DNA of 39,037 nucleotides from a virus (Duplodnaviria; Caudoviricetes): IMG/VR virus record IMGVR_UViG_3300027956_000022, positions 1-39,037 of that record; one strand, written 5' to 3'. The translations under genes were made by a program, and so were the position numbers. Below are positions 1,896-20,991 of this stretch, one piece after another. The notes beneath the pieces are model-generated. The model made no database searches. It was not told the origin of the DNA and worked only from the letters and a program-made list of their open reading frames with translations. Position 1 is the stretch's first letter; every line of letters starts with the position of its first letter.

Positions 1896-2257
1896 GCCAT
1901 CTCCTTCGCGGCCACGGTAACGCCGGGCTTGTCGTCCTCGCCGCACATGAGCTTGAACACCCGCAACTCGACCACCTGTGAGTCATCCCCCCACACCTTC
2001 CCGTTGCAGGCGTCCAGAATCGGCTTAGCGGGGCCGTCGATGTCCTGACGGGGGTTGGTGAGGAGGAGGGTGAGATCGACGCTCAAGGGGCCTTCCAGGG
2101 GCCTTAGGCCACGGGTTGCGCGGGTGGCGCAGGCCTTCACTGCATCGTGAAAGGCTCGATACTCGGGGGAGAGCCGGAAGGTGCGCCCCACGTAGCGCCG
2201 GTTGACAGATACCGGCTTGAGGGGGACATGGAAGCTGATGCCCCGGGGCACGCTCAC
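1892..2257 (-). CDS. rusA: RusA-family Holliday junction resolvase
   Basis: PVSVNRRY...DIDGPAKPILDA...VWGDDSQVVEL motifs. Confidence 0.88.
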   Translation of the reverse strand: MSVPRGISFHVPLKPVSVNRRYVGRTFRLSPEYRAFHDAVKACATRATRGLRPLEGPLSVDLTLLLTNPRQDIDGPAKPILDACNGKVWGDDSQVVELRVFKLMCGEDDKPGVTVAAKEMA

Positions 2258-2595
2258 GGGTGCCGCCTCCCCTCAAGGTCGCTGACGAGGGAGCCGATCT
2301 CGTAGTAGCGAGGAATCCCCATGTCCGCGGCCATCGTCTCCTCGCGGTCGGCTCCGGGGCTGTGCCCGGGTAGGCGCAGGAAAACGTCACACGCCTCCAG
2401 CCACGCGAAGTCTAGGGCCATCCACGTCTCGTAGGGCCTCGGGGTCTGGGCGTCCCAGTAATGGGACAGGTGTGGGACGTAGGGGGCGAACCCGGCGTCA
2501 AGGAGGCGGGACGCGGCGTCGAGGGCGGTTCGCACGTTCTCCTCGCGGTTGCCCTGGGTGAGGGGGCCCGCTACGTAGACGCGAATTGGCTTCAC
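2254..2595 (-). CDS. DUF4406-like / nucleoside 2-deoxyribosyltransferase-fold protein
   Basis: VYVAGP...PYVPH...WMALDFAWLEACD...LPGHSPGADRE pattern; GTG start overlaps the upstream stop. Confidence 0.75.
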   Translation of the reverse strand: MKPIRVYVAGPLTQGNREENVRTALDAASRLLDAGFAPYVPHLSHYWDAQTPRPYETWMALDFAWLEACDVFLRLPGHSPGADREETMAADMGIPRYYEIGSLVSDLEGRRHP

Positions 2596-2891
2596 GGCCG
2601 ACCCCCGCACTCCTTGCAATTAAAACGGCCGCAGTCGCAGGGCTTAACCTTGCCCTCCCCGCGACAAAAACGACAGGCGGGATCGTAGGGGCGGATGAAC
2701 ACCCGAACATCACCGCCGCACTCGGGACAGGGGGTGAGCCAGCCCCCCATGCGCCTCCCCGTGAGATCGATCACGTTGTCCTTGCGTGGGGGGAGGTCGT
2801 AATCCTCGTCGTCCCAGAAATGGGCGGCGATGAGGATCGCCGAGGAGCCCACGGCCAGCAGGATTCCGAAGGCGTAGAGCAGGGTCAGCAT
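2592..2891 (-). CDS. membrane-anchored zinc-finger protein
   Basis: Hydrophobic N-terminus (MLTLLYAFGILLAV...), then CPECGG, CRFCRGEG, CDC and CKEC. Confidence 0.6.
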   Translation of the reverse strand: MLTLLYAFGILLAVGSSAILIAAHFWDDEDYDLPPRKDNVIDLTGRRMGGWLTPCPECGGDVRVFIRPYDPACRFCRGEGKVKPCDCGRFNCKECGGRP

Positions 2892-3048: not shown

Positions 3049-3203
3049 TCGTCCGTCTCCTTTTCGGTGTCACACCATGGTTTCGGCGGCAACCTCTCGG
3101 CGGTCGGCTTCGGTTCGGCTGGATCCAGTGCTTCCTCCCTTGCTCGGCGGAGGATCTCCCGGATGCGGTCGAGGGCGGATTGCGTCTCGGTCATTTCTGT
3201 CAT
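3045..3203 (-). CDS. small hypothetical protein (52 aa, not in the ORF track)
   Basis: Hand translation MTEMTETQSALDRIREILRRAREE...KETDE; ATGA overlaps at both ends. Confidence 0.55.
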   Translation of the reverse strand: MTEMTETQSALDRIREILRRAREEALDPAEPKPTAERLPPKPWCDTEKETDE

Positions 3204-3961
3204 CCCGGCTCCGTGACTCCGTAGCCCTCGTTTTGGCCGCAGAATAGGCCGCAGTCGGGAAGGTCTAGATCCTCGTGCCGTCCAGCGTCGGGCCGCAGGT
3301 CCCGGAGGCTGGTGCCTTTGAGAACCGTCGCCCCGATGCGGGCCTCAAGATCGGCCATCCGGGCGAACACGTCGGGAAAATCTTTGCGGATCTTGTTCCA
3401 GTAACCGGCCCCACCCTTCACGCACCCGATGCAGTTGGCGTTGTGGTATCCGAGCCGGTACATCGCTGGGAGTTCGATGCCAGCGTTCTGGAGCACACGA
3501 AAGCAGTGTGTCTTATTCATCCCCCGGTCGATGAGGGGACAACTCACGTTGAGCACTTCCGGGTTATGAGCCTTGAACCGCTCCAGCCGCTCCCGCTCCT
3601 CGACCGTGTAGCCGAACACCTGGGTCACATCGGGATCGTCACAAAACGCACGCCGAACCTTCTTCTTCATCTCGACGGTGCAGAGGGCGCCGCCGGGAGA
3701 GTTCAGAAAGCGGCGCTTCTCCCACACGTCCCAACAGTCAGCGTACTTGTGTGAACTGAGGTTCAGGATCTTCCGGCCGAGCCACCGCTCCACGTCTGCC
3801 GCAAAGCGGTCGTTGTCCGGGTGCTCATTGGCGACGATGCACCGGGCAATGGTAGCAGTGGGGTCCCGCTCAAGTGTCAGCTTTGCCGCCACGGCGCTGG
3901 CTGCTCCACACGAGAACCAGACAATAGATTTAGTCATATCTAGGGCTGTGGGCTCAGGCAT
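3200..3961 (-). CDS. PAPS reductase-like / adenine nucleotide alpha-hydrolase (PP-loop) protein
   Basis: WFSCGAASAVA PP-loop-like start; NANCIGCVKGGAGYW and terminal CGLFC cysteine motifs. Confidence 0.75.
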   Translation of the reverse strand: MPEPTALDMTKSIVWFSCGAASAVAAKLTLERDPTATIARCIVANEHPDNDRFAADVERWLGRKILNLSSHKYADCWDVWEKRRFLNSPGGALCTVEMKKKVRRAFCDDPDVTQVFGYTVEERERLERFKAHNPEVLNVSCPLIDRGMNKTHCFRVLQNAGIELPAMYRLGYHNANCIGCVKGGAGYWNKIRKDFPDVFARMADLEARIGATVLKGTSLRDLRPDAGRHEDLDLPDCGLFCGQNEGYGVTEPG

Positions 3962-4886
3962 CGAACCCCTCCACCGGCATGGACTCCTTCACTACTTTGG
4001 CGATCCACGACACCATGCGGGGGCGGGTATCCCTCTCCCGGACGGTCCGAGCGATGAAGGCATAGACGGGTCCAGGGCCGCCTCGAAGAGCGATAACGCG
4101 CTCGAACTCCTCGGCCTCGGCCTGCGACTGGAGGGGGACTAGGCCCGTGCCCATCCCTGCCTCGATGTTTCGGATAAGTTCGGCGCCGAGAATGCCAAGC
4201 CCCATGCGTCCGCTCCCGCTCGCCCGCGCTTCCTCGTCATGCGGCGGGGCGGGGCGTGCCTCGACGGGACGGGCCTCCCCTCCACTCCCCGGGACGGGAA
4301 GGGGCGGGGCGGGAAGGGCCTCCACGGGGCGGGGCGGGGCGGGGCGGGAGAGTGTAGACTTTTGCCCGCCGTTTGCCCGGTCGGGCCCCTCGTTTTCTGG
4401 GCAAACGCCCGCCGTTTGCCCGTTAGTTGCCGAACGGTTGCCGGTCAGTTGCTTGGCCCGGCCCTTTTTGCCCGCCGCCGAACGAAGCTCAGAGAGGGAT
4501 TCTCCCTTTGCCTCCCGCTCCGCTTCCCGCTTGGCTCGGCGCTCCACGAATTCCGGGGCGTGGTCCCAGAGGTCATGAACCCGATACGTGCCCGGCCTAC
4601 CCTCCGGCCATGAGTCGTCGCCCCCCTCGTCGATGAACCCCGCCAACCCCTCTCCGCCGGCTCCGAGCAGGGCGGCCAAGAGCACCCCGTCACGGCCCCG
4701 CCAATGGGCGGCGGTCTCCACGTCCACCCGGTCTCCGATATAGTCGTCTGCGGCCTCGTAGGCGGCATCCCAGAGGAGTTCTAGGGCCCCCCGAGCCAGG
4801 ATCTCGCCGAACCCGACCTGAACGTCATCGAGGGCGCGGGCCAGCCTGCGGAACTTCCGGTCCATCGTTAGGCCGATGCGAGCCAT
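3954..4886 (-). CDS. putative replication initiator
   Basis: KFRRLARAL...LELLW...VHDLWDH N-terminal domain, low-complexity linker carrying DNA repeats, position in the early operon. Confidence 0.6.
   Translation of the reverse strand: MARIGLTMDRKFRRLARALDDVQVGFGEILARGALELLWDAAYEAADDYIGDRVDVETAAHWRGRDGVLLAALLGAGGEGLAGFIDEGGDDSWPEGRPGTYRVHDLWDHAPEFVERRAKREAEREAKGESLSELRSAAGKKGRAKQLTGNRSATNGQTAGVCPENEGPDRANGGQKSTLSRPAPPRPVEALPAPPLPVPGSGGEARPVEARPAPPHDEEARASGSGRMGLGILGAELIRNIEAGMGTGLVPLQSQAEAEEFERVIALRGGPGPVYAFIARTVRERDTRPRMVSWIAKVVKESMPVEGFDA
4361..4474. repeat. iteron-like repeats, putative replication origin
   Basis: TTTGCCCG at 4361, 4372, 4415, 4467; TTGC phased at 11 bp (4416, 4427, 4438, 4449); 16-bp repeat at 4364 and 4407. 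Confidence 0.6.
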
Positions 4887-5107
4887 TATGCCCCCCCGCC
4901 GTCTGTATCGGAGGCCCACGCGGCTACGATGTCGGCCACACGGCGAAGGTCAGCCGCTATTTCGGCTGCCGTTTTAGGGTCTCCGGTTACGAGGTCCCCC
5001 TCGTCGTCCTCGATGCTATAGAACGCCTGACCCACCGCGTTAGCAGTCACGCGAAACACCATCGTCTCGCCGCGGTCCGATACCGGAATCCCGATTTCCG
5101 TAAACAT
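4886..5107 (-). CDS. hypothetical protein
   Basis: GAGGGG SD before ATG 5107; stop overlaps the initiator start. Confidence 0.6.
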   Translation of the reverse strand: MFTEIGIPVSDRGETMVFRVTANAVGQAFYSIEDDEGDLVTGDPKTAAEIAADLRRVADIVAAWASDTDGGGA

Positions 5108-5118
5108 AATCACCCCTC

Positions 5119-5224
5119 AAAAGCCGACACCCTCACCCCCGTGGGCAAGCACGGGAGGAGGGTGTCTTGTGGGCAACGCGCGAGCGCCACCCGAGAACCT
5201 ATCACGGAGTCTTGCCACTCCATG
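5119..5224 (-). ncRNA. structured leader RNA: three hairpins with complementary loops, the last terminator-like
   Basis: Stems 5203-5224, 5171-5192, 5126-5166; mismatches are G-U only on the minus strand; loops GGCAAG and CUUGCC are complementary; GGCUUUU follows. Confidence 0.7.
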
Positions 5225-5231
5225 GGAGAAC

Positions 5232-5261
5232 ACACTACCACGCTGCTAGGGCAGGCGTCCA
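5232..5261 (-). promoter_or_regulatory. putative sigma70-type promoter (TGGACG-N18-TAGTGT, extended TG)
   Basis: Predicted start near 5224-5225, at the base of the first leader hairpin. Confidence 0.5.
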
Positions 5262-5262
5262 T

Positions 5263-6093
5263 CTACGCCCCCTCCCCTTCGCTGGACGCCCCGAGGAGCG
5301 ACCCCTGGACTCCCACGGGCTCGACGGACATCGGGATCCGCAGCTGCTCCCGAGCCGCACGAAGCCGCTTCACGGCCACGTCAAAATACTTGGGCTCACG
5401 CTCCCAGCCGATGAAGCGGCGGCCGAGGCGGATGCACGCCACGCCGGTTGTGCCCGAGCCCGCGAAGGGGTCGCACACCAGTTCGCCGGGGTCCGTGAAG
5501 TCGGAGACGAGCGCCTCCATCAGGGCGAGGGGCTTCTGCGTAGTGTGGACGCGCGCATCCTCGCCCTGTCGACCGGGACGCGAGACCGCCACGGGCAGAG
5601 GGTAAAGGCCCTGCTTACCACCCCCATTCCACCGCTTGCGGCCGGGTGGGTGGCAGACCGTGATCGCCTCGCACGCCACGGCTGGTCGGTCTCCGGTGAA
5701 TTGAGGGGCGCCGCAGACCTTGTGCCAAAAGCAGGTGCGTGCATATTCGAGGCCTCCGCCTCGGAGTTCGTCGGCCCAAAGATGCGATCCCTCGGTGTCC
5801 GAAAAGACAAGGCTCCAGCGGGTCGAGATCCGGCCGCAATGCATCCCAACCTCGTTCCGCGTCGCCCCCGTGAGGGCATCGAATCCGAGTGGGGCGATCG
5901 AGGAGATCACGCCGCTTCGCCAGCCCTGTTCGCCGCGCCTCACCGACGCGTGAACGTGCTCCGAGTATGGCGGGTCCGTAATCACGTGGTCGACGCTCTT
6001 GTCCGCGAGTGACGCCAATCCGTGCTCCGGGTCGAGACAATCGCCACACGTCAACCGCCACCCCGGCCCCTCGGTTACCTCGGGGGCGCTCAC
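5263..6093 (-). CDS. DNA methyltransferase, N4-C/N6-A, beta class
   Basis: ITDPPY catalytic motif before HTTQKP and the DPFAGSGTTG SAM-binding motif. Confidence 0.92.
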   Translation of the reverse strand: MSAPEVTEGPGWRLTCGDCLDPEHGLASLADKSVDHVITDPPYSEHVHASVRRGEQGWRSGVISSIAPLGFDALTGATRNEVGMHCGRISTRWSLVFSDTEGSHLWADELRGGGLEYARTCFWHKVCGAPQFTGDRPAVACEAITVCHPPGRKRWNGGGKQGLYPLPVAVSRPGRQGEDARVHTTQKPLALMEALVSDFTDPGELVCDPFAGSGTTGVACIRLGRRFIGWEREPKYFDVAVKRLRAAREQLRIPMSVEPVGVQGSLLGASSEGEGA

Positions 6094-6828: not shown

Positions 6829-7037
6829 GGCCGATCCTCCTTGCGCCACACGTCCACCGGGATCCCGGCCTCGTCCCTGATGCGCAAGGCTAGGGTGAGC
6901 CCCGGGGAGCGGGTACCCTGGACGATACGGGAAACCTGCGCGTGGTCAACGTCGAGGATGCGGCCGGCCTTGCGAGGGCCGATCCCCTGCGTTGACATCC
7001 ACTCCTTGAGCATCTTTCCGCCTGTGTTTCGTGCCAT
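6825..7037 (-). CDS. Cro/CI-type (XRE) HTH regulator, 70 aa
   Basis: PRKAGRILDVDHAQVSRIVQGTRSPGLTLALRI HTH; first gene of the leftward arm. Confidence 0.85.
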   Translation of the reverse strand: MARNTGGKMLKEWMSTQGIGPRKAGRILDVDHAQVSRIVQGTRSPGLTLALRIRDEAGIPVDVWRKEDRP

Positions 7038-7043
7038 GGGTCT

Positions 7044-7072
7044 TGTATATAGGACCCCTCTCGGTGTGTCAA
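7044..7072 (-). promoter_or_regulatory. leftward early promoter (TTGACA-N17-TATACA)
   Basis: Perfect -35; the -10 ends 6 nt before ATG 7037, suggesting a leaderless transcript. Confidence 0.75.
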
Positions 7073-7084
7073 TGGTCGCCGCGC

Positions 7085-7114
7085 TTGACACCGTACCCGG
7101 GGTGGGCGTAGAAG
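7085..7114 (+). promoter_or_regulatory. rightward early promoter (TTGACA-N18-TAGAAG)
   Basis: Perfect -35, back-to-back with the leftward -35, forming GTGTCAA-N12-TTGACAC. Confidence 0.65.
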
Positions 7115-7154: not shown

Positions 7155-7477
7155 GCGTGAGCGACACCATTGAGCGCATCAAGGCGTACCGCAACGAGCA
7201 CCCCGGTTGTAGCCTGCTGGAGGCCAAGAACGCCGTTGAGCACCCGGACAAGCCGCGCTGCCAGCACGGGGAACTGACCGAGCGCGAGTGCCTGCGTTGT
7301 GACAACGATCGACTTCGCGCGCGACTGGCCGAAGTTGAGGGGGCGTTGGCGGACCTTCTGGAGTCCGGGAAGCCCATCACGGGGGGCGGCGGCGTATGGG
7401 TGTTTTACGGAGACTGGACCGACGCCCGCGCGGTCCTCTCCCGCACCGAGGGTCGAGAACCGGAGGTGAAGCCGTGA
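7151..7477 (+). CDS. hypothetical protein
   Basis: AAGGAG SD; IKAYRNEHPGCSLLEAKNAVE resembles an L7/L12 C-terminal-like motif; CQH/CLRC. Confidence 0.65.
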   Translation: MSVSDTIERIKAYRNEHPGCSLLEAKNAVEHPDKPRCQHGELTERECLRCDNDRLRARLAEVEGALADLLESGKPITGGGGVWVFYGDWTDARAVLSRTEGREPEVKP

Positions 7478-7932
7478 GCCTCGAACTAGTCCCCTGTACG
7501 GTGCGTGACGCCATGTCGTTCGTGGGCCAGCACCACCGGCACCACCGGGCCCCTAACGGAGGGTTGTTCGCCGTGGCTTGTGCCGACGATGCGCGCGAGG
7601 TCGCTGATGCGCTGATCGGGGTCGCCATCGTGGCCCAGCCTGTCGCGCGAATGGCGATGGATGGATGGACCGCCGAGGTCATCCGCCTGTGCGTGCTCCC
7701 GGGACACCCCAACGCCTGTTCGATGCTGTATGGCGCATGCTGGCGAGCTGCTCGCGCCCTCGGGTGGCGGCGGCTGATCACGTACACGCTTCCCGAGGAA
7801 GGCGGGGCGTCCCTCCGCGCTTCCGGCTGGCGCTGTCTTGGCGAAGCGGGCGGAGGCAGGTGGACGCGGAAGAACCGCCCCCGAGTGGACCGACACCCAA
7901 CGCAGGTGAAGATCAAGTGGGAGGCGGAATGA
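7474..7932 (+). CDS. XF1762-family protein (Mom-like / GNAT-fold, putative DNA modification)
   Basis: HHRHH...GVAIVAQPVAR...EVIRLCV...NACSMLYGACWRAARALG...ITYTL...GASLRASGW. Confidence 0.8.
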   Translation: MSLELVPCTVRDAMSFVGQHHRHHRAPNGGLFAVACADDAREVADALIGVAIVAQPVARMAMDGWTAEVIRLCVLPGHPNACSMLYGACWRAARALGWRRLITYTLPEEGGASLRASGWRCLGEAGGGRWTRKNRPRVDRHPTQVKIKWEAE

Positions 7933-19377: not shown

Positions 19378-20991
19378 CTAGTACCGGGTGCCCGCCGTGG
19401 CGTTCAGGGGGAGCTGCTCGATGCGGAGGCCGCTGATTCGAGTGCCGACCTTTGGGTTGGCTCCGCCGTCGTCAACGGTCCAAGAGGTATAGACCTGTTC
19501 AGCGGATGCACTAGTTACCCACGGAACGTGCTTCGCCATGCCAAACGGAAGCAACTGGTACGGCTGCGCCACGGTGTCAACCGCAACCCGCGTTGCCGTA
19601 GCGGCGAGCGCCTTGGTGCCAGATTCATCTGTCCACGAATAACACAGATCAACATCGGCATCGATTGCGTAGTTGTGGTACGCGGTGCTGAACAAGGGAG
19701 TGCCTACCGCGCCGTCGGCAAACGCAAACAACCTGGTTCCCTGAACTTCGATGTCGTTGTCGATGGGTGTTCTGGTCGGGGTTGTGTCCTCTTCATGTGG
19801 GGAGACCCACCTACAATCGCAGATCAGACAGCGGAGACCCCGCTTGCTCCACATCCACACCATGTTTGCTACCAACGACGAACGCTGCGCCGCGGTGATG
19901 TAGCTGCCACCGGACATATTCCCGTTGTCGTTTGGAGTAAACGACGCCGGAACAGACTCTGCCCCGGGCAACGACAACGAGGAGCCGGTTTCCCATAGGG
20001 TCACGGAGGCAACCCACATGGCGTCGGCCGTAGAAGCTCGTTCAACCGTTACTTCAACGGCAGTCGTGGCGTCGAACGGAGTTATAGAGATTGTTGCCGT
20101 GTACCACGCAAACGTCGTGGCGGTTACGGATATGGTGGCAGCCGTAACGCCGTCGATTTTGATCAAGAGAGAATAGGTCCCGGCCCCAGAGTTTCCGGCC
20201 AATACTGCGACCTTCAAGGCCGAAACCCGAGCCCCGATTAGGACTTTGTAGATCCCCAGGTTAACCCCAGCGTCGTTGCGCGCGAACAAGCCCAGGTGCG
20301 AGGCGACACACTGGGGCGCTCCGCGTGAGGCAACGAACAAGTTAGCGTGTTGTGCCAGCCACCGCGCTAGATATCTAGAGTCGGGGCGATCCGCAGCGGC
20401 CCAGGCTTGACTGACCGCTCCCCACGCGGCAGGCGCCCACAGGGAGGTTGGAACCCAATACGAACACACCGACTCCACGGCGTACGCGTCCCCGGAACTG
20501 GTTGTTGCCCACAATTCCCACACGTCCAGTGGATCCGTTGGCGTGTCCACTGACACCCACCCTGCATAAAACCCCAGCGCCGCGTAGGTAACGGTAACGC
20601 TACTCGTAGCTAGCGTGCGGGTGTTCTTGAGCGTCAGTGTCGCGGACGTGGTGGCGCCGAGCGTCAGATAAAACCACCATCTCACCGAGGCCGAGGCGCC
20701 GCGGTGAGATGGGATGGAATAAACGCCGATACGATCCGACGTTCTTGTTAGGTACGGAAGTACCGGCGCCGTTTGGGCCGCGTTGTGATAGTCGTTGGTC
20801 CACGCGTTGAGGGCCCGCGCAACGTTGCCCATGAAAATCTTAGTATCCCACGGCGAGGCGGGGAGGTCGGAGTTGTAGGTGTAGTTTTCCCAGTCCATCA
20901 ACGCGCGCCATGAGGTCGCCATTTCTGGAGTACCGGGACCAAACTCGTCGCTGGAAAACGTCCGCCGCGTCTCGGGGTAGGTGACGGTCAT
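19378..20991 (-). CDS. tail tip / minor tail protein
   Basis: Position after the hub gene; Thr/Ala/Trp-rich beta character; visibly lower GC. Confidence 0.6.
   Translation of the reverse strand: MTVTYPETRRTFSSDEFGPGTPEMATSWRALMDWENYTYNSDLPASPWDTKIFMGNVARALNAWTNDYHNAAQTAPVLPYLTRTSDRIGVYSIPSHRGASASVRWWFYLTLGATTSATLTLKNTRTLATSSVTVTYAALGFYAGWVSVDTPTDPLDVWELWATTSSGDAYAVESVCSYWVPTSLWAPAAWGAVSQAWAAADRPDSRYLARWLAQHANLFVASRGAPQCVASHLGLFARNDAGVNLGIYKVLIGARVSALKVAVLAGNSGAGTYSLLIKIDGVTAATISVTATTFAWYTATISITPFDATTAVEVTVERASTADAMWVASVTLWETGSSLSLPGAESVPASFTPNDNGNMSGGSYITAAQRSSLVANMVWMWSKRGLRCLICDCRWVSPHEEDTTPTRTPIDNDIEVQGTRLFAFADGAVGTPLFSTAYHNYAIDADVDLCYSWTDESGTKALAATATRVAVDTVAQPYQLLPFGMAKHVPWVTSASAEQVYTSWTVDDGGANPKVGTRISGLRIEQLPLNATAGTRY

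What the first reader, a model, noticed from the sequence alone, without database searches (positions are those of the whole stretch)
5119..5261. Kissing-loop leader RNA / attenuator in front of the replication operon
Seen: after a plausible promoter the minus-strand RNA reads CAUGGAGU-GGCAAG-ACUCCGUG, then GGGUGGCGC-UCGC-GCGUUGCCC, then GACACCCUCCUCCCGUG-CUUGCC-CACGGGGGUGAGGGUGUC-GGCUUUU, followed at once by the SD and ATG 5107. Loops 1 and 3 are exact reverse complements, and all stem mismatches are G-U only in this orientation. Known: P1 C4 and P4 CI RNAs control termination by short complementary pairing. Inference: this is an RNA switch gating replication genes, possibly providing immunity in a phage with no CI protein.
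Basis: partly seen in the sequence, partly recalled or inferred. Interest (0 to 1): 0.8.

Follow-up and report, generated by a model that had tools for sequence, protein, structure and literature searches.

The report
Kissing-loop leader gating phage replication
Just ahead of this uncultured phage's DNA-replication genes lies a 105-base stretch predicted to fold into three RNA hairpins whose first and third tips are exact complements, two other phages keep that match with different letters, and it is likely an uncatalogued RNA switch that sets how much replication protein is made.

Summary
In detail: three hairpins on the minus strand (5224-5126; fold z = -4.9), loops GGCAAG/CUUGCC. Two homologues turned up in other phages (L267, L347). 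Their loops are GGCCAG/CUGGCC and UGUCGG/CCGACA, so 18 of 18 loop-loop cells pair and 4 of 6 pairs change on both sides. In all three, a promoter-like site precedes hairpin 1 and a replication-initiator gene follows, directly or after one small ORF; the initiators are different proteins. No Rfam family matches. The kissing RNA is therefore very likely real. Its output is untested. Most likely (about 0.45) it is an attenuator in which the loop-loop contact opposes full closure of hairpin 3, as in guanidine-IV riboswitches. The U-tract is weak (GGC then 3-4 U) and the ribosome site is predicted to be occluded, so a translational switch is a serious rival (0.25). Immunity is poorly supported: no integrase, no CI, no C4 match, no second target sites. 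The element is optional: none of 125 loci related through the window's initiator gave a credible match. Earlier AI notes of this scan report similar leaders in many other phages.

The parts
5256..5261 (-). -35-like hexamer TGGACG
   Evidence: TGGAC kept in 3 of 3 members at 17-18 nt from the -10-like hexamer; the L347 version is called by the consensus scan, 9 of 12; not called in the window
5232..5240 (-). extended -10-like element (TG, then TAGTGT)
   Evidence: TAGnnT in 3 of 3, the TG extension in 2 of 3; function inferred
5203..5224 (-). hairpin 1 (8 bp), starting with CAUG at the inferred transcription start
   Evidence: 5 of 8 pairs change on both sides across 3 members
5211..5216 (-). 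loop 1, GGCAAG, one half of the kissing helix
   Evidence: 18 of 18 cells pair with loop 3; 4 of 6 pairs compensatory
5193..5202 (-). 10-nt linker ending in UCUC, which is predicted to pair weakly with the ribosome site
   Evidence: UCUCGG invariant and linker length gap-free in 3 members; pairing predicted
5171..5192 (-). hairpin 2 (6-9 bp across members)
   Evidence: its 3' arm can alternatively pair with the tail and ribosome site in L267 and L347
5126..5166 (-). hairpin 3 (17 bp, one bulge), candidate terminator hairpin
   Evidence: -31.7 kcal/mol, z -5.8; strongest hairpin followed by 3 or more U in the window (1st of 59 listed) and in G532 (1st of 35); 40-41 nt in all 3 members
5144..5149 (-). 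loop 3, CUUGCC, other half of the kissing helix
5119..5125 (-). GGCUUUU tail (short U-tract)
   Evidence: GGCUUU in 3 of 3; in L347 this was imposed by the search pattern
5110..5223 (-). possible leader ORF of 37 codons from the AUG at the foot of hairpin 1, ending just before the next start codon
   Evidence: open in 3 of 3 members, stops at -5, -2 and -9 from the next ATG, but 5 of 9 frames end that close: weak
5113..5118 (-). SD-like GAGGGG of the next gene
   Evidence: sequence; predicted cost of opening 2.7-3.7 kcal/mol here, 7-18 in the homologues
4886..5107 (-). 73-aa orphan ORF, first gene behind the leader
   Evidence: no credible relative
3954..4886 (-). replication initiator (310 aa) with internal iteron-like 16-nt repeats at 4364-4379 and 4407-4422
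   Evidence: model matches predicted replisome-organizer, DUF1376 and primosomal proteins (E 3e-5 to 6e-4); weak PHROG hit; repeats; no significant PDB match
5263..6093 (-). N6/N4 DNA methyltransferase gene directly upstream (context, not part of the element)
   Evidence: its homologue also precedes the element in L267 but not in L347

Best explanation
This is a three-hairpin leader with a covarying loop-loop match that sits in front of the phage replication module and likely works as a transcription attenuator controlling read-through into the initiator gene. Inferred steps: (1) RNA polymerase starts at about 5225-5223 (or arrives from the early operon) and makes hairpins 1 and 2; (2) as the top of hairpin 3 forms, its loop can kiss loop 1; (3) the kissed, rigid form strains the short tether (10-nt linker, hairpin 2, ACAA) and delays closing of the base of hairpin 3, so polymerase passes the weak GGCUUU tract and transcribes the initiator; (4) without the kiss, hairpin 3 closes fully and a share of transcripts stops, giving a roughly 105-nt RNA. 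The most economical trigger, also inferred, is the leader itself: finished leaders from other copies of the same genome carry a matching loop and could occupy loop 1 of a nascent RNA, lowering initiator output as genome copies accumulate. Shown: structure, covariation, position. Not shown: transcription, termination, sign of the switch, trigger.
For: Loop pairing 18 of 18 cells, 4 of 6 pairs compensatory, slid controls 18-56% paired; whole pseudoknotted structure 97% paired, 14 of 26 pairs compensatory, 0 of 500 shuffles. Promoter-like spacing kept in 3 of 3. Replication module follows in 3 of 3: window initiator with iterons; L267 a 331-aa gene with iteron-like repeats followed by a DnaC-like loader; L347 a DUF1376/primosomal protein followed by DnaB. 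Upstream and downstream genes differ, so the RNA tracks the position, not one gene. Hairpin 3 is the strongest hairpin followed by 3 or more U in both near-complete genomes. There is no room for another promoter between tail and ribosome site, so any stop here gates the genes behind. Helix and linker lengths are kept while letters change, as a geometric constraint would require. Precedent for the geometry: guanidine-IV, where a kiss between the 5' hairpin and the terminator loop opposes terminator closure (PMC7736828 and PMC11611296, passages read).
Against: The U-tract has only 3-4 U and begins 3 nt after the stem; the terminator scan calls it in 0 of 3 members. The ribosome site is predicted to be paired in all three, which points to translation control. 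No upstream sequence forms a convincing classical antiterminator in prefix folds. Only three members; L347 was found with a pattern that fixed the bases at the foot of hairpin 3, so that conservation is circular there. The element is dispensable in relatives: no credible match in 29 virus records and 96 loci related through the initiator, and in 1 of 80 methyltransferase loci only; in L239, L241 and L246 the methyltransferase runs straight into the next gene. No expression data.
Confidence: 0.45

Rival explanations
1. Translational switch: the folded leader hides the ribosome site of the first replication-module gene (through the UCUC linker or the 3' arm of hairpin 2), and the kiss and/or translation of a leaderless 34-37-codon ORF frees it, as the pseudoknot and leader peptide do in IncI/IncB plasmids.
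For: Predicted cost of opening SD to AUG: 2.7-3.7 (window), 7.2-17.9 (L267), 7.1-8.0 (L347) kcal/mol. In L267 and L347 the 3' arm of hairpin 2 pairs with the SD region in the most stable fold. An AUG sits at the inferred start in 3 of 3 although hairpin 1 is otherwise rewritten in L347, and its frame stops at -5, -2, -9 from the next ATG. Weak U-tract. Precedent: PMC4705826 and PMC8053102, passages read.
Against: The SD-hiding register differs among the three, and in the window hairpin 2 stays formed and the alternative fold is 6-7 kcal/mol worse. 5 of 9 frames end within 12 nt of the next ATG, so the ORF pattern has about a 0.17 chance by itself; the peptides are not conserved. CAT is also a common start-site sequence (recalled).
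Confidence: 0.25
2. RNA-based immunity or exclusion of the P4-CI / P1-C4 type: a stable leader RNA shuts down replication genes of incoming phages that share its loop code.
For: No CI detected beside the Cro-like gene in the window or G532. Loop codes differ between phages and cross-pair poorly: cognate -7.7 to -10.1, non-cognate -4.2 to +0.3 kcal/mol. P4 uses an RNA to terminate transcription of its replication genes (PMC4825925, passage read).
Against: No integrase or partition gene detected in either near-complete genome, so no evident lysogenic state. No C4 match. No second target site at a gene start. Loop variation is also what any structural kiss allows.
Confidence: 0.12
3. A stand-alone small RNA (promoter to hairpin 3) with a compact fold that binds a protein or ligand through the conserved junction bases; its position before the initiator is secondary, or it is a riboswitch-like sensor.
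For: Single-stranded UCUC, ACAA and GGCUUU and the helix ends next to them are invariant while the stems are rewritten; between the window and L267 this was not imposed by the search.
Against: Same position in 3 of 3 with different flanking genes; loops, which form the pocket in guanidine-IV, vary freely here; no candidate ligand or partner gene is shared.
Confidence: 0.13
4. The hairpins act as DNA (single-stranded origin or primase site beside the initiator) or the loop match is incidental.
For: Close to the origin region; G-T wobble also occurs in single-stranded DNA; a full 6/6 loop match arose once by chance in 2211 control pairs.
Against: Three different complementary loop pairs; conserved promoter-like site directly upstream and SD directly downstream; iteron-like repeats place the origin inside the initiator gene in the window and L267.
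Confidence: 0.05

Closest known systems
Guanidine-IV riboswitch (GGAM-1; PMC7736828 and PMC11611296, passages read)
   Same: 5' hairpin loop pairs with the loop of a downstream terminator-like hairpin; the kiss is proposed to oppose closure of the terminator base.
   Different: No Rfam match; an extra middle hairpin; loop letters vary freely instead of forming a conserved pocket; sits before phage replication initiators, not sugE-type exporters; weak U-tract; no ligand known.
IncI-alpha / IncB plasmid replication control (ColIb-P9 repY-repZ pseudoknot and Inc RNA; PMC4705826 and PMC8053102, passages read)
   Same: Leader in front of a replication initiator; long-range pairing of an upstream loop; possible short leader ORF ending at the next start; predicted occlusion of the ribosome site.
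   Different: The partner of loop 1 is another hairpin loop, not the stem that hides the SD; no antisense promoter found; the replicon is a tailed phage.
Phage P4 CI RNA with seqA/seqC, and P1 C4 RNA (PMC4825925, passage read; P1 details recalled)
   Same: Short RNA-RNA pairing in a leader upstream of replication genes in a phage lacking a detected CI protein; phage-specific pairing codes.
   Different: No C4 model match; one internal loop-loop pair rather than a processed RNA with two flanking targets; no sign of a lysogenic state.
Kissing-loop leaders before phage replication genes reported in earlier notes of this scan (e.g. e1-10468117; AI notes)
   Same: Promoter, hairpin 1, terminator-like hairpin with complementary covarying loops, replication genes behind; one is also three-hairpin and near a methyltransferase.
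   Different: No shared short words with this family; 6-nt rather than 7-nt loops; GC-rich, probably Anaeromyxobacter-like host; short U-tract; no copy of the loop code over start codons.

Membership tests
C4 / P4 CI immunity RNA | match to the C4 covariance model or another Rfam family | tested here: not met
   no hit at gathering score in the window, only chance hits at E up to 10, RF01695 no hit at E up to 1, none for L267 or L347
C4 / P4 CI immunity RNA | two complementary target sites flanking the RNA | tested here: not met
   within 3-4 kb the other copies of the loop hexamers lie inside genes, none at a start codon or in the leader; no complement longer than chance 10-12-mers elsewhere in the window
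C4 / P4 CI immunity RNA | temperate life cycle that needs immunity | tested here: inconclusive
   no integrase, partition gene or CI detected among 100 ORF scans of the window or 59 ORFs of G532; many ORFs have no family
C4 / P4 CI immunity RNA | stable processed RNA that acts in trans | not testable with these tools
   needs RNA data
Guanidine-IV riboswitch | kiss between the 5' hairpin loop and the loop of the 3' hairpin | tested here: met
   18 of 18 cells pair, 4 of 6 pairs compensatory
Guanidine-IV riboswitch | highly conserved loop bases forming the ligand pocket, and model match | tested here: not met
   loops differ at 4 of 6 pairs; no Rfam hit
Guanidine-IV riboswitch | location upstream of guanidine-export or related genes | tested here: not met
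   replication modules follow in 3 of 3
Guanidine-IV riboswitch | 3' hairpin is an intrinsic terminator | tested here: inconclusive
   strongest hairpin-plus-U site of both genomes but not called by the scan
Guanidine-IV riboswitch | ligand binding | not testable with these tools
   needs in-line probing
IncI/IncB pseudoknot replication control | leader directly upstream of a replication initiator | tested here: met
   directly in L267, one small ORF between in the window and L347
IncI/IncB pseudoknot replication control | translated leader peptide coupled to the next gene | tested here: inconclusive
   ORF open in 3 of 3 with stops at -5, -2, -9, but 5 of 9 frames behave so
IncI/IncB pseudoknot replication control | upstream loop pairs with the arm that hides the SD | tested here: not met
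   loop 1 pairs with loop 3, 26 nt upstream of the SD, not with the UCUC linker or hairpin 2 arm
IncI/IncB pseudoknot replication control | cis-encoded antisense RNA with its own promoter | tested here: inconclusive
   no promoter-like site on the opposite strand near the element in 3 of 3; the scan also misses the sense promoter in 2 of 3

The most novel reading that the evidence does not exclude
A protein-free copy counter for phage DNA replication: the leader's own loop code lets finished leaders from sister genomes out-compete the internal kiss of nascent ones, so initiator output falls as copies of the same phage accumulate, while phages with a different six-letter code are ignored. It would be a ligand-free, self-addressed attenuator, swappable between unrelated initiator genes, in apparently non-integrating phages.
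Probability: 0.25. Interest if true: 0.85.

Novelty: new variant of a known kind. Interest (0 to 1): 0.66.

Why it matters
How lambdoid-type phages without a CI repressor dose their replication initiator is little studied, and RNA control of phage replication is known from very few cases (P4, P1). This element is a compact module of about 105 nt with three natural, mutually non-matching loop codes, so the question can be tested directly with reporters and swaps. If earlier notes of this scan are right, the same design recurs in many unrelated phages; this family would extend it to GC-rich, probably myxobacterial hosts. Orthogonal loop codes would also be useful parts for synthetic attenuators.

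Tried and rejected
Exact-pattern scans of the virus collection for hairpin 1 (15 stretches), hairpin 1 plus loop 3 (36) and hairpin 3 (13) gave only chance or coding matches. L005 shares the 16-nt core of hairpin 1 and has the loop-3 hexamer 39 nt downstream; it scored 17.9 bits with the one-sequence model (circular) and nothing with the three-sequence model: dropped. 14 of the 16 hits of the junction pattern lack the fold. Relatives through the initiator: the single-protein scan found none; the alignment found 29 virus, 80 metagenome (one is the window itself) and 17 genome loci, none with the element. Bacterial genomes around the Anaeromyxobacter genome G001: BLAST in 301 (short chance hits), models in 92 (0, then 1 non-folding hit), junction pattern in 401 (6 hits against 6 in the reversed control); only 40 candidates per genome were scored, so these are 'not found in those searched'. 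Two genome loci with relatives of the L267 initiator lack the element. Weak model hits L357, L355, L169, L124 do not keep the helices or the loop match. Annotated phage and plasmid records: no real DNA match; initiators absent or one distant hit. The 73-aa ORF has no credible relative. Sequencing runs: no RNA holder listed; the single DNA run may be the source and showed no variants. Origin of loop 3 by inverted duplication of hairpin 1 was rejected because the stems are not reverse complements and the loops covary. A sigma-54 reading of the TGGC/TTGC words was rejected on spacing (consensus recalled). The idea from earlier notes that loop 3 also matches start-codon regions was tested and not met.

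Full report
Setting. The window is a 39,037-base virus record with HK97-type head genes, terminase small subunit at one end and HNH at the other, which suggests a nearly whole cos-type genome although its completeness estimate is 49%. A Cro-like HTH gene (7034-6825) heads a minus-strand early operon: small ORFs, a DNA methyltransferase (6093-5263), the element, a 73-aa orphan (5107-4886), a 310-aa gene (4886-3954), PAPS reductase, RusA, HNH. No integrase, partition gene or CI was detected in 70 plus 30 ORF scans. The 310-aa protein is a replication initiator by inference: its model (pLDDT 77) matches predicted replisome-organizer, DUF1376 and primosomal proteins (5 matches at E below 0.001; none in the PDB), and the gene holds perfect 16-nt repeats 43 nt apart. 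Its closest relative among 17 genome loci is in an Anaeromyxobacter genome (58%), which hints at the host group.

Observation. The 108-nt piece folds into three hairpins, z -4.86 on the minus strand against -2.82 on the plus strand. In a simple null, loops of two strong hairpins within 150 nt share a 6-nt complement in 5 of 2211 control pairs and in 1 of 67 pairs in the window. That is unlikely at one locus but would be met often in a large scan, so homologues were needed. Rfam has nothing at gathering score in the window, only chance hits around the element, and no C4 match.

Homologues. Direct pattern scans and 125 loci related through the initiator gave nothing. A scan with the methyltransferase returned 80 loci; a covariance model built from the window alone found one clear match among them, L267:274-384, 75.9 bits, directly behind the methyltransferase stop. 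A pattern from the bases shared by the two gave 16 stretches, of which one was L267 again and one a new member, L347:1953-2059, 49.6 bits. Loops are GGCAAG/CUUGCC, GGCCAG/CUGGCC and UGUCGG/CCGACA. Counted on the plain alignment A8, all 18 loop-loop cells are Watson-Crick pairs and 4 of 6 pairs change on both sides; 7 of 500 shuffles reach this and slid controls pair 18-56%. Neither search used the loop match, and the model cannot score it. With the stems added, 97% of 78 cells pair and 14 of 26 pairs are compensatory, 0 of 500 shuffles; the model-fitted alignment gives 17 of 34 (leans to the model). With three sequences these controls are not probabilities, but three different exact loop matches are hard to get by drift.

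Conserved anatomy. In all three a TGGAC hexamer, 17-18 nt, a TAGnnT hexamer and 6-7 nt precede CATG at the foot of hairpin 1; the consensus scan calls the L347 site (9 of 12; 0.1 expected) but not the other two. Hairpin 1 plus linker align without gaps, hairpin 3 is 40-41 nt, and UCUCGG, CCACAAGAC and GUCGGCUUU are invariant; the last two were imposed on L347 by the pattern. Behind the element lies a replication module each time, but a different one: in L267 a 331-aa gene with iteron-like repeats and then a DnaC-like loader, in L347 a 90-aa ORF, a DUF1376/primosomal protein and DnaB. Upstream genes differ too. G532, the record of L347, resembles the window in plan: terminase at one end, HNH at the other, one Cro-like HTH, no integrase or CI among 59 ORFs scanned. 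Relatives of the L267 initiator occur in 2 of 401 genomes, both in the family of the Anaeromyxobacter genome, without the element. In other phages the same methyltransferase runs straight into the next gene, or an unrelated ORF fills the slot (L083, L239, L241, L246), so the leader is an optional, mobile module.

Mechanism. Shown: fold, kiss, position. The rest is inference. Hairpin 3 is the strongest hairpin followed by three or more U in both near-complete genomes (first of 59 and of 35 listed), yet its tail is GGC and then 3-4 U, and the scan calls no terminator. The one known RNA with this loop-to-terminator-loop geometry that I read about is the guanidine-IV riboswitch, where the kiss is proposed to stretch the linker so the outer terminator pairs cannot form (PMC7736828, passages) and growth of the terminator stem hinders the kiss (PMC11611296, passages); the pointer to it came from earlier notes of this scan. 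Here 8 + 6 + 17 stacked pairs must be spanned by 14 unpaired bases and the foot of hairpin 2; by rough A-form dimensions (recalled) this is possible but taut, and these lengths are what the three members keep. I therefore favour an attenuator with kiss = read-through (0.45). The loops vary freely, so a small-molecule pocket as in guanidine-IV is unlikely; the simplest input is the leader itself in trans, because cognate loops pair at -7.7 to -10.1 kcal/mol and non-cognate ones at -4.2 to +0.3. Against this stands a translational reading (0.25): the SD is predicted to be occluded in all three (2.7-18 kcal/mol to open), and an AUG at the inferred start opens a frame of 37, 36 and 34 codons that ends at -5, -2 and -9 from the next ATG, as leader peptides do in IncI and IncB plasmids (PMC4705826, PMC8053102, passages). 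But the occluding register differs between members, the peptides differ, and 5 of 9 frames end that close anyway. Both levels may operate. Immunity of the P4 type (PMC4825925, passage) fails on targets, model and the lack of any detected lysogeny gene.

Novelty. No Rfam family for any member. Eight full-text searches (listings and abstract starts seen) showed no paper on such a leader in phages; the library lacks most subscription journals. PMC10690425 lists 10,006 candidate viral RNAs, 8,495 from IMG/VR; I read passages and searched 6 supplementary files without a hit, but 3 files, including the largest, were not searched, so the motif may be among those unannotated candidates. Within this scan, 142 notes in at least 137 genomes hold the same key words and the 8 shown describe kissing-loop leaders before phage replication genes; they are unchecked AI notes and share no short words with this family, and none was found for myxobacterial phages. 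I count them as leads, not support. The element works like a known kind (loop-loop attenuator or plasmid-style replication leader) but belongs to no tested family: new variant of a known kind.

Verdict. The RNA and its kiss are very likely real (about 0.93); that it regulates the genes behind it in cis is likely (about 0.7); the level and trigger are open. Interest 0.66: strong covariation, clear and cheap tests, but three members, no expression data and an apparently recurrent design in this scan.

Noticed in passing
L005:1450-1620: Intergenic stretch after a major capsid gene with four hairpins, three with CCUCC-rich loops (GGAGG loops on the other strand, reminiscent of CsrA/Rsm sites, recalled), and the same 16-nt core as hairpin 1 here; not matched by the three-member model.
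   Followed up: partly
window 1-39037 and G532: Both look like nearly whole cos-type genomes with a single Cro-like HTH gene and no detected CI, integrase or partition gene: possibly a group of non-integrating lambdoid-plan phages of myxobacteria.
   Followed up: partly
window 7034-7090: Divergent TTGACA promoters; the Cro-like gene's ATG follows its -10-like region by 6-8 nt with no SD, so it may be leaderless, with the same CCC-ATG context as the ATG at 5223.
   Followed up: no
window 7396-7932 (+), 3200-3961 (-), 2254-2619 (-): Mom-like DNA modification protein, PAPS-reductase-like protein and nucleoside 2-deoxyribosyltransferase-like protein besides the methyltransferase: possibly several DNA-modification functions in a 39-kb phage.
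   Followed up: no
window 20572-20768 (-): Three hairpins each followed by 3-4 U inside the 537-aa tail-region ORF, one at -29.2 kcal/mol, the second strongest such site in the genome.
   Followed up: no
L083:1551-2031: In a related phage the slot between the same methyltransferase and the same initiator family holds a different ORF with an HNH-like motif (read by eye) instead of the leader.
   Followed up: partly
L267:826-931: Four copies of a 12-nt repeat at 21-nt spacing in pairs inside the L267 initiator gene, whose family (54 proteins) has no Pfam or PHROG name: an unannotated initiator family.
   Followed up: partly
window 4886-5107 (-) and L347:2064-2336: In two of three members an orphan ORF of 73 or 90 aa sits between leader and initiator and overlaps the initiator's start; neither has a known family.
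   Followed up: partly
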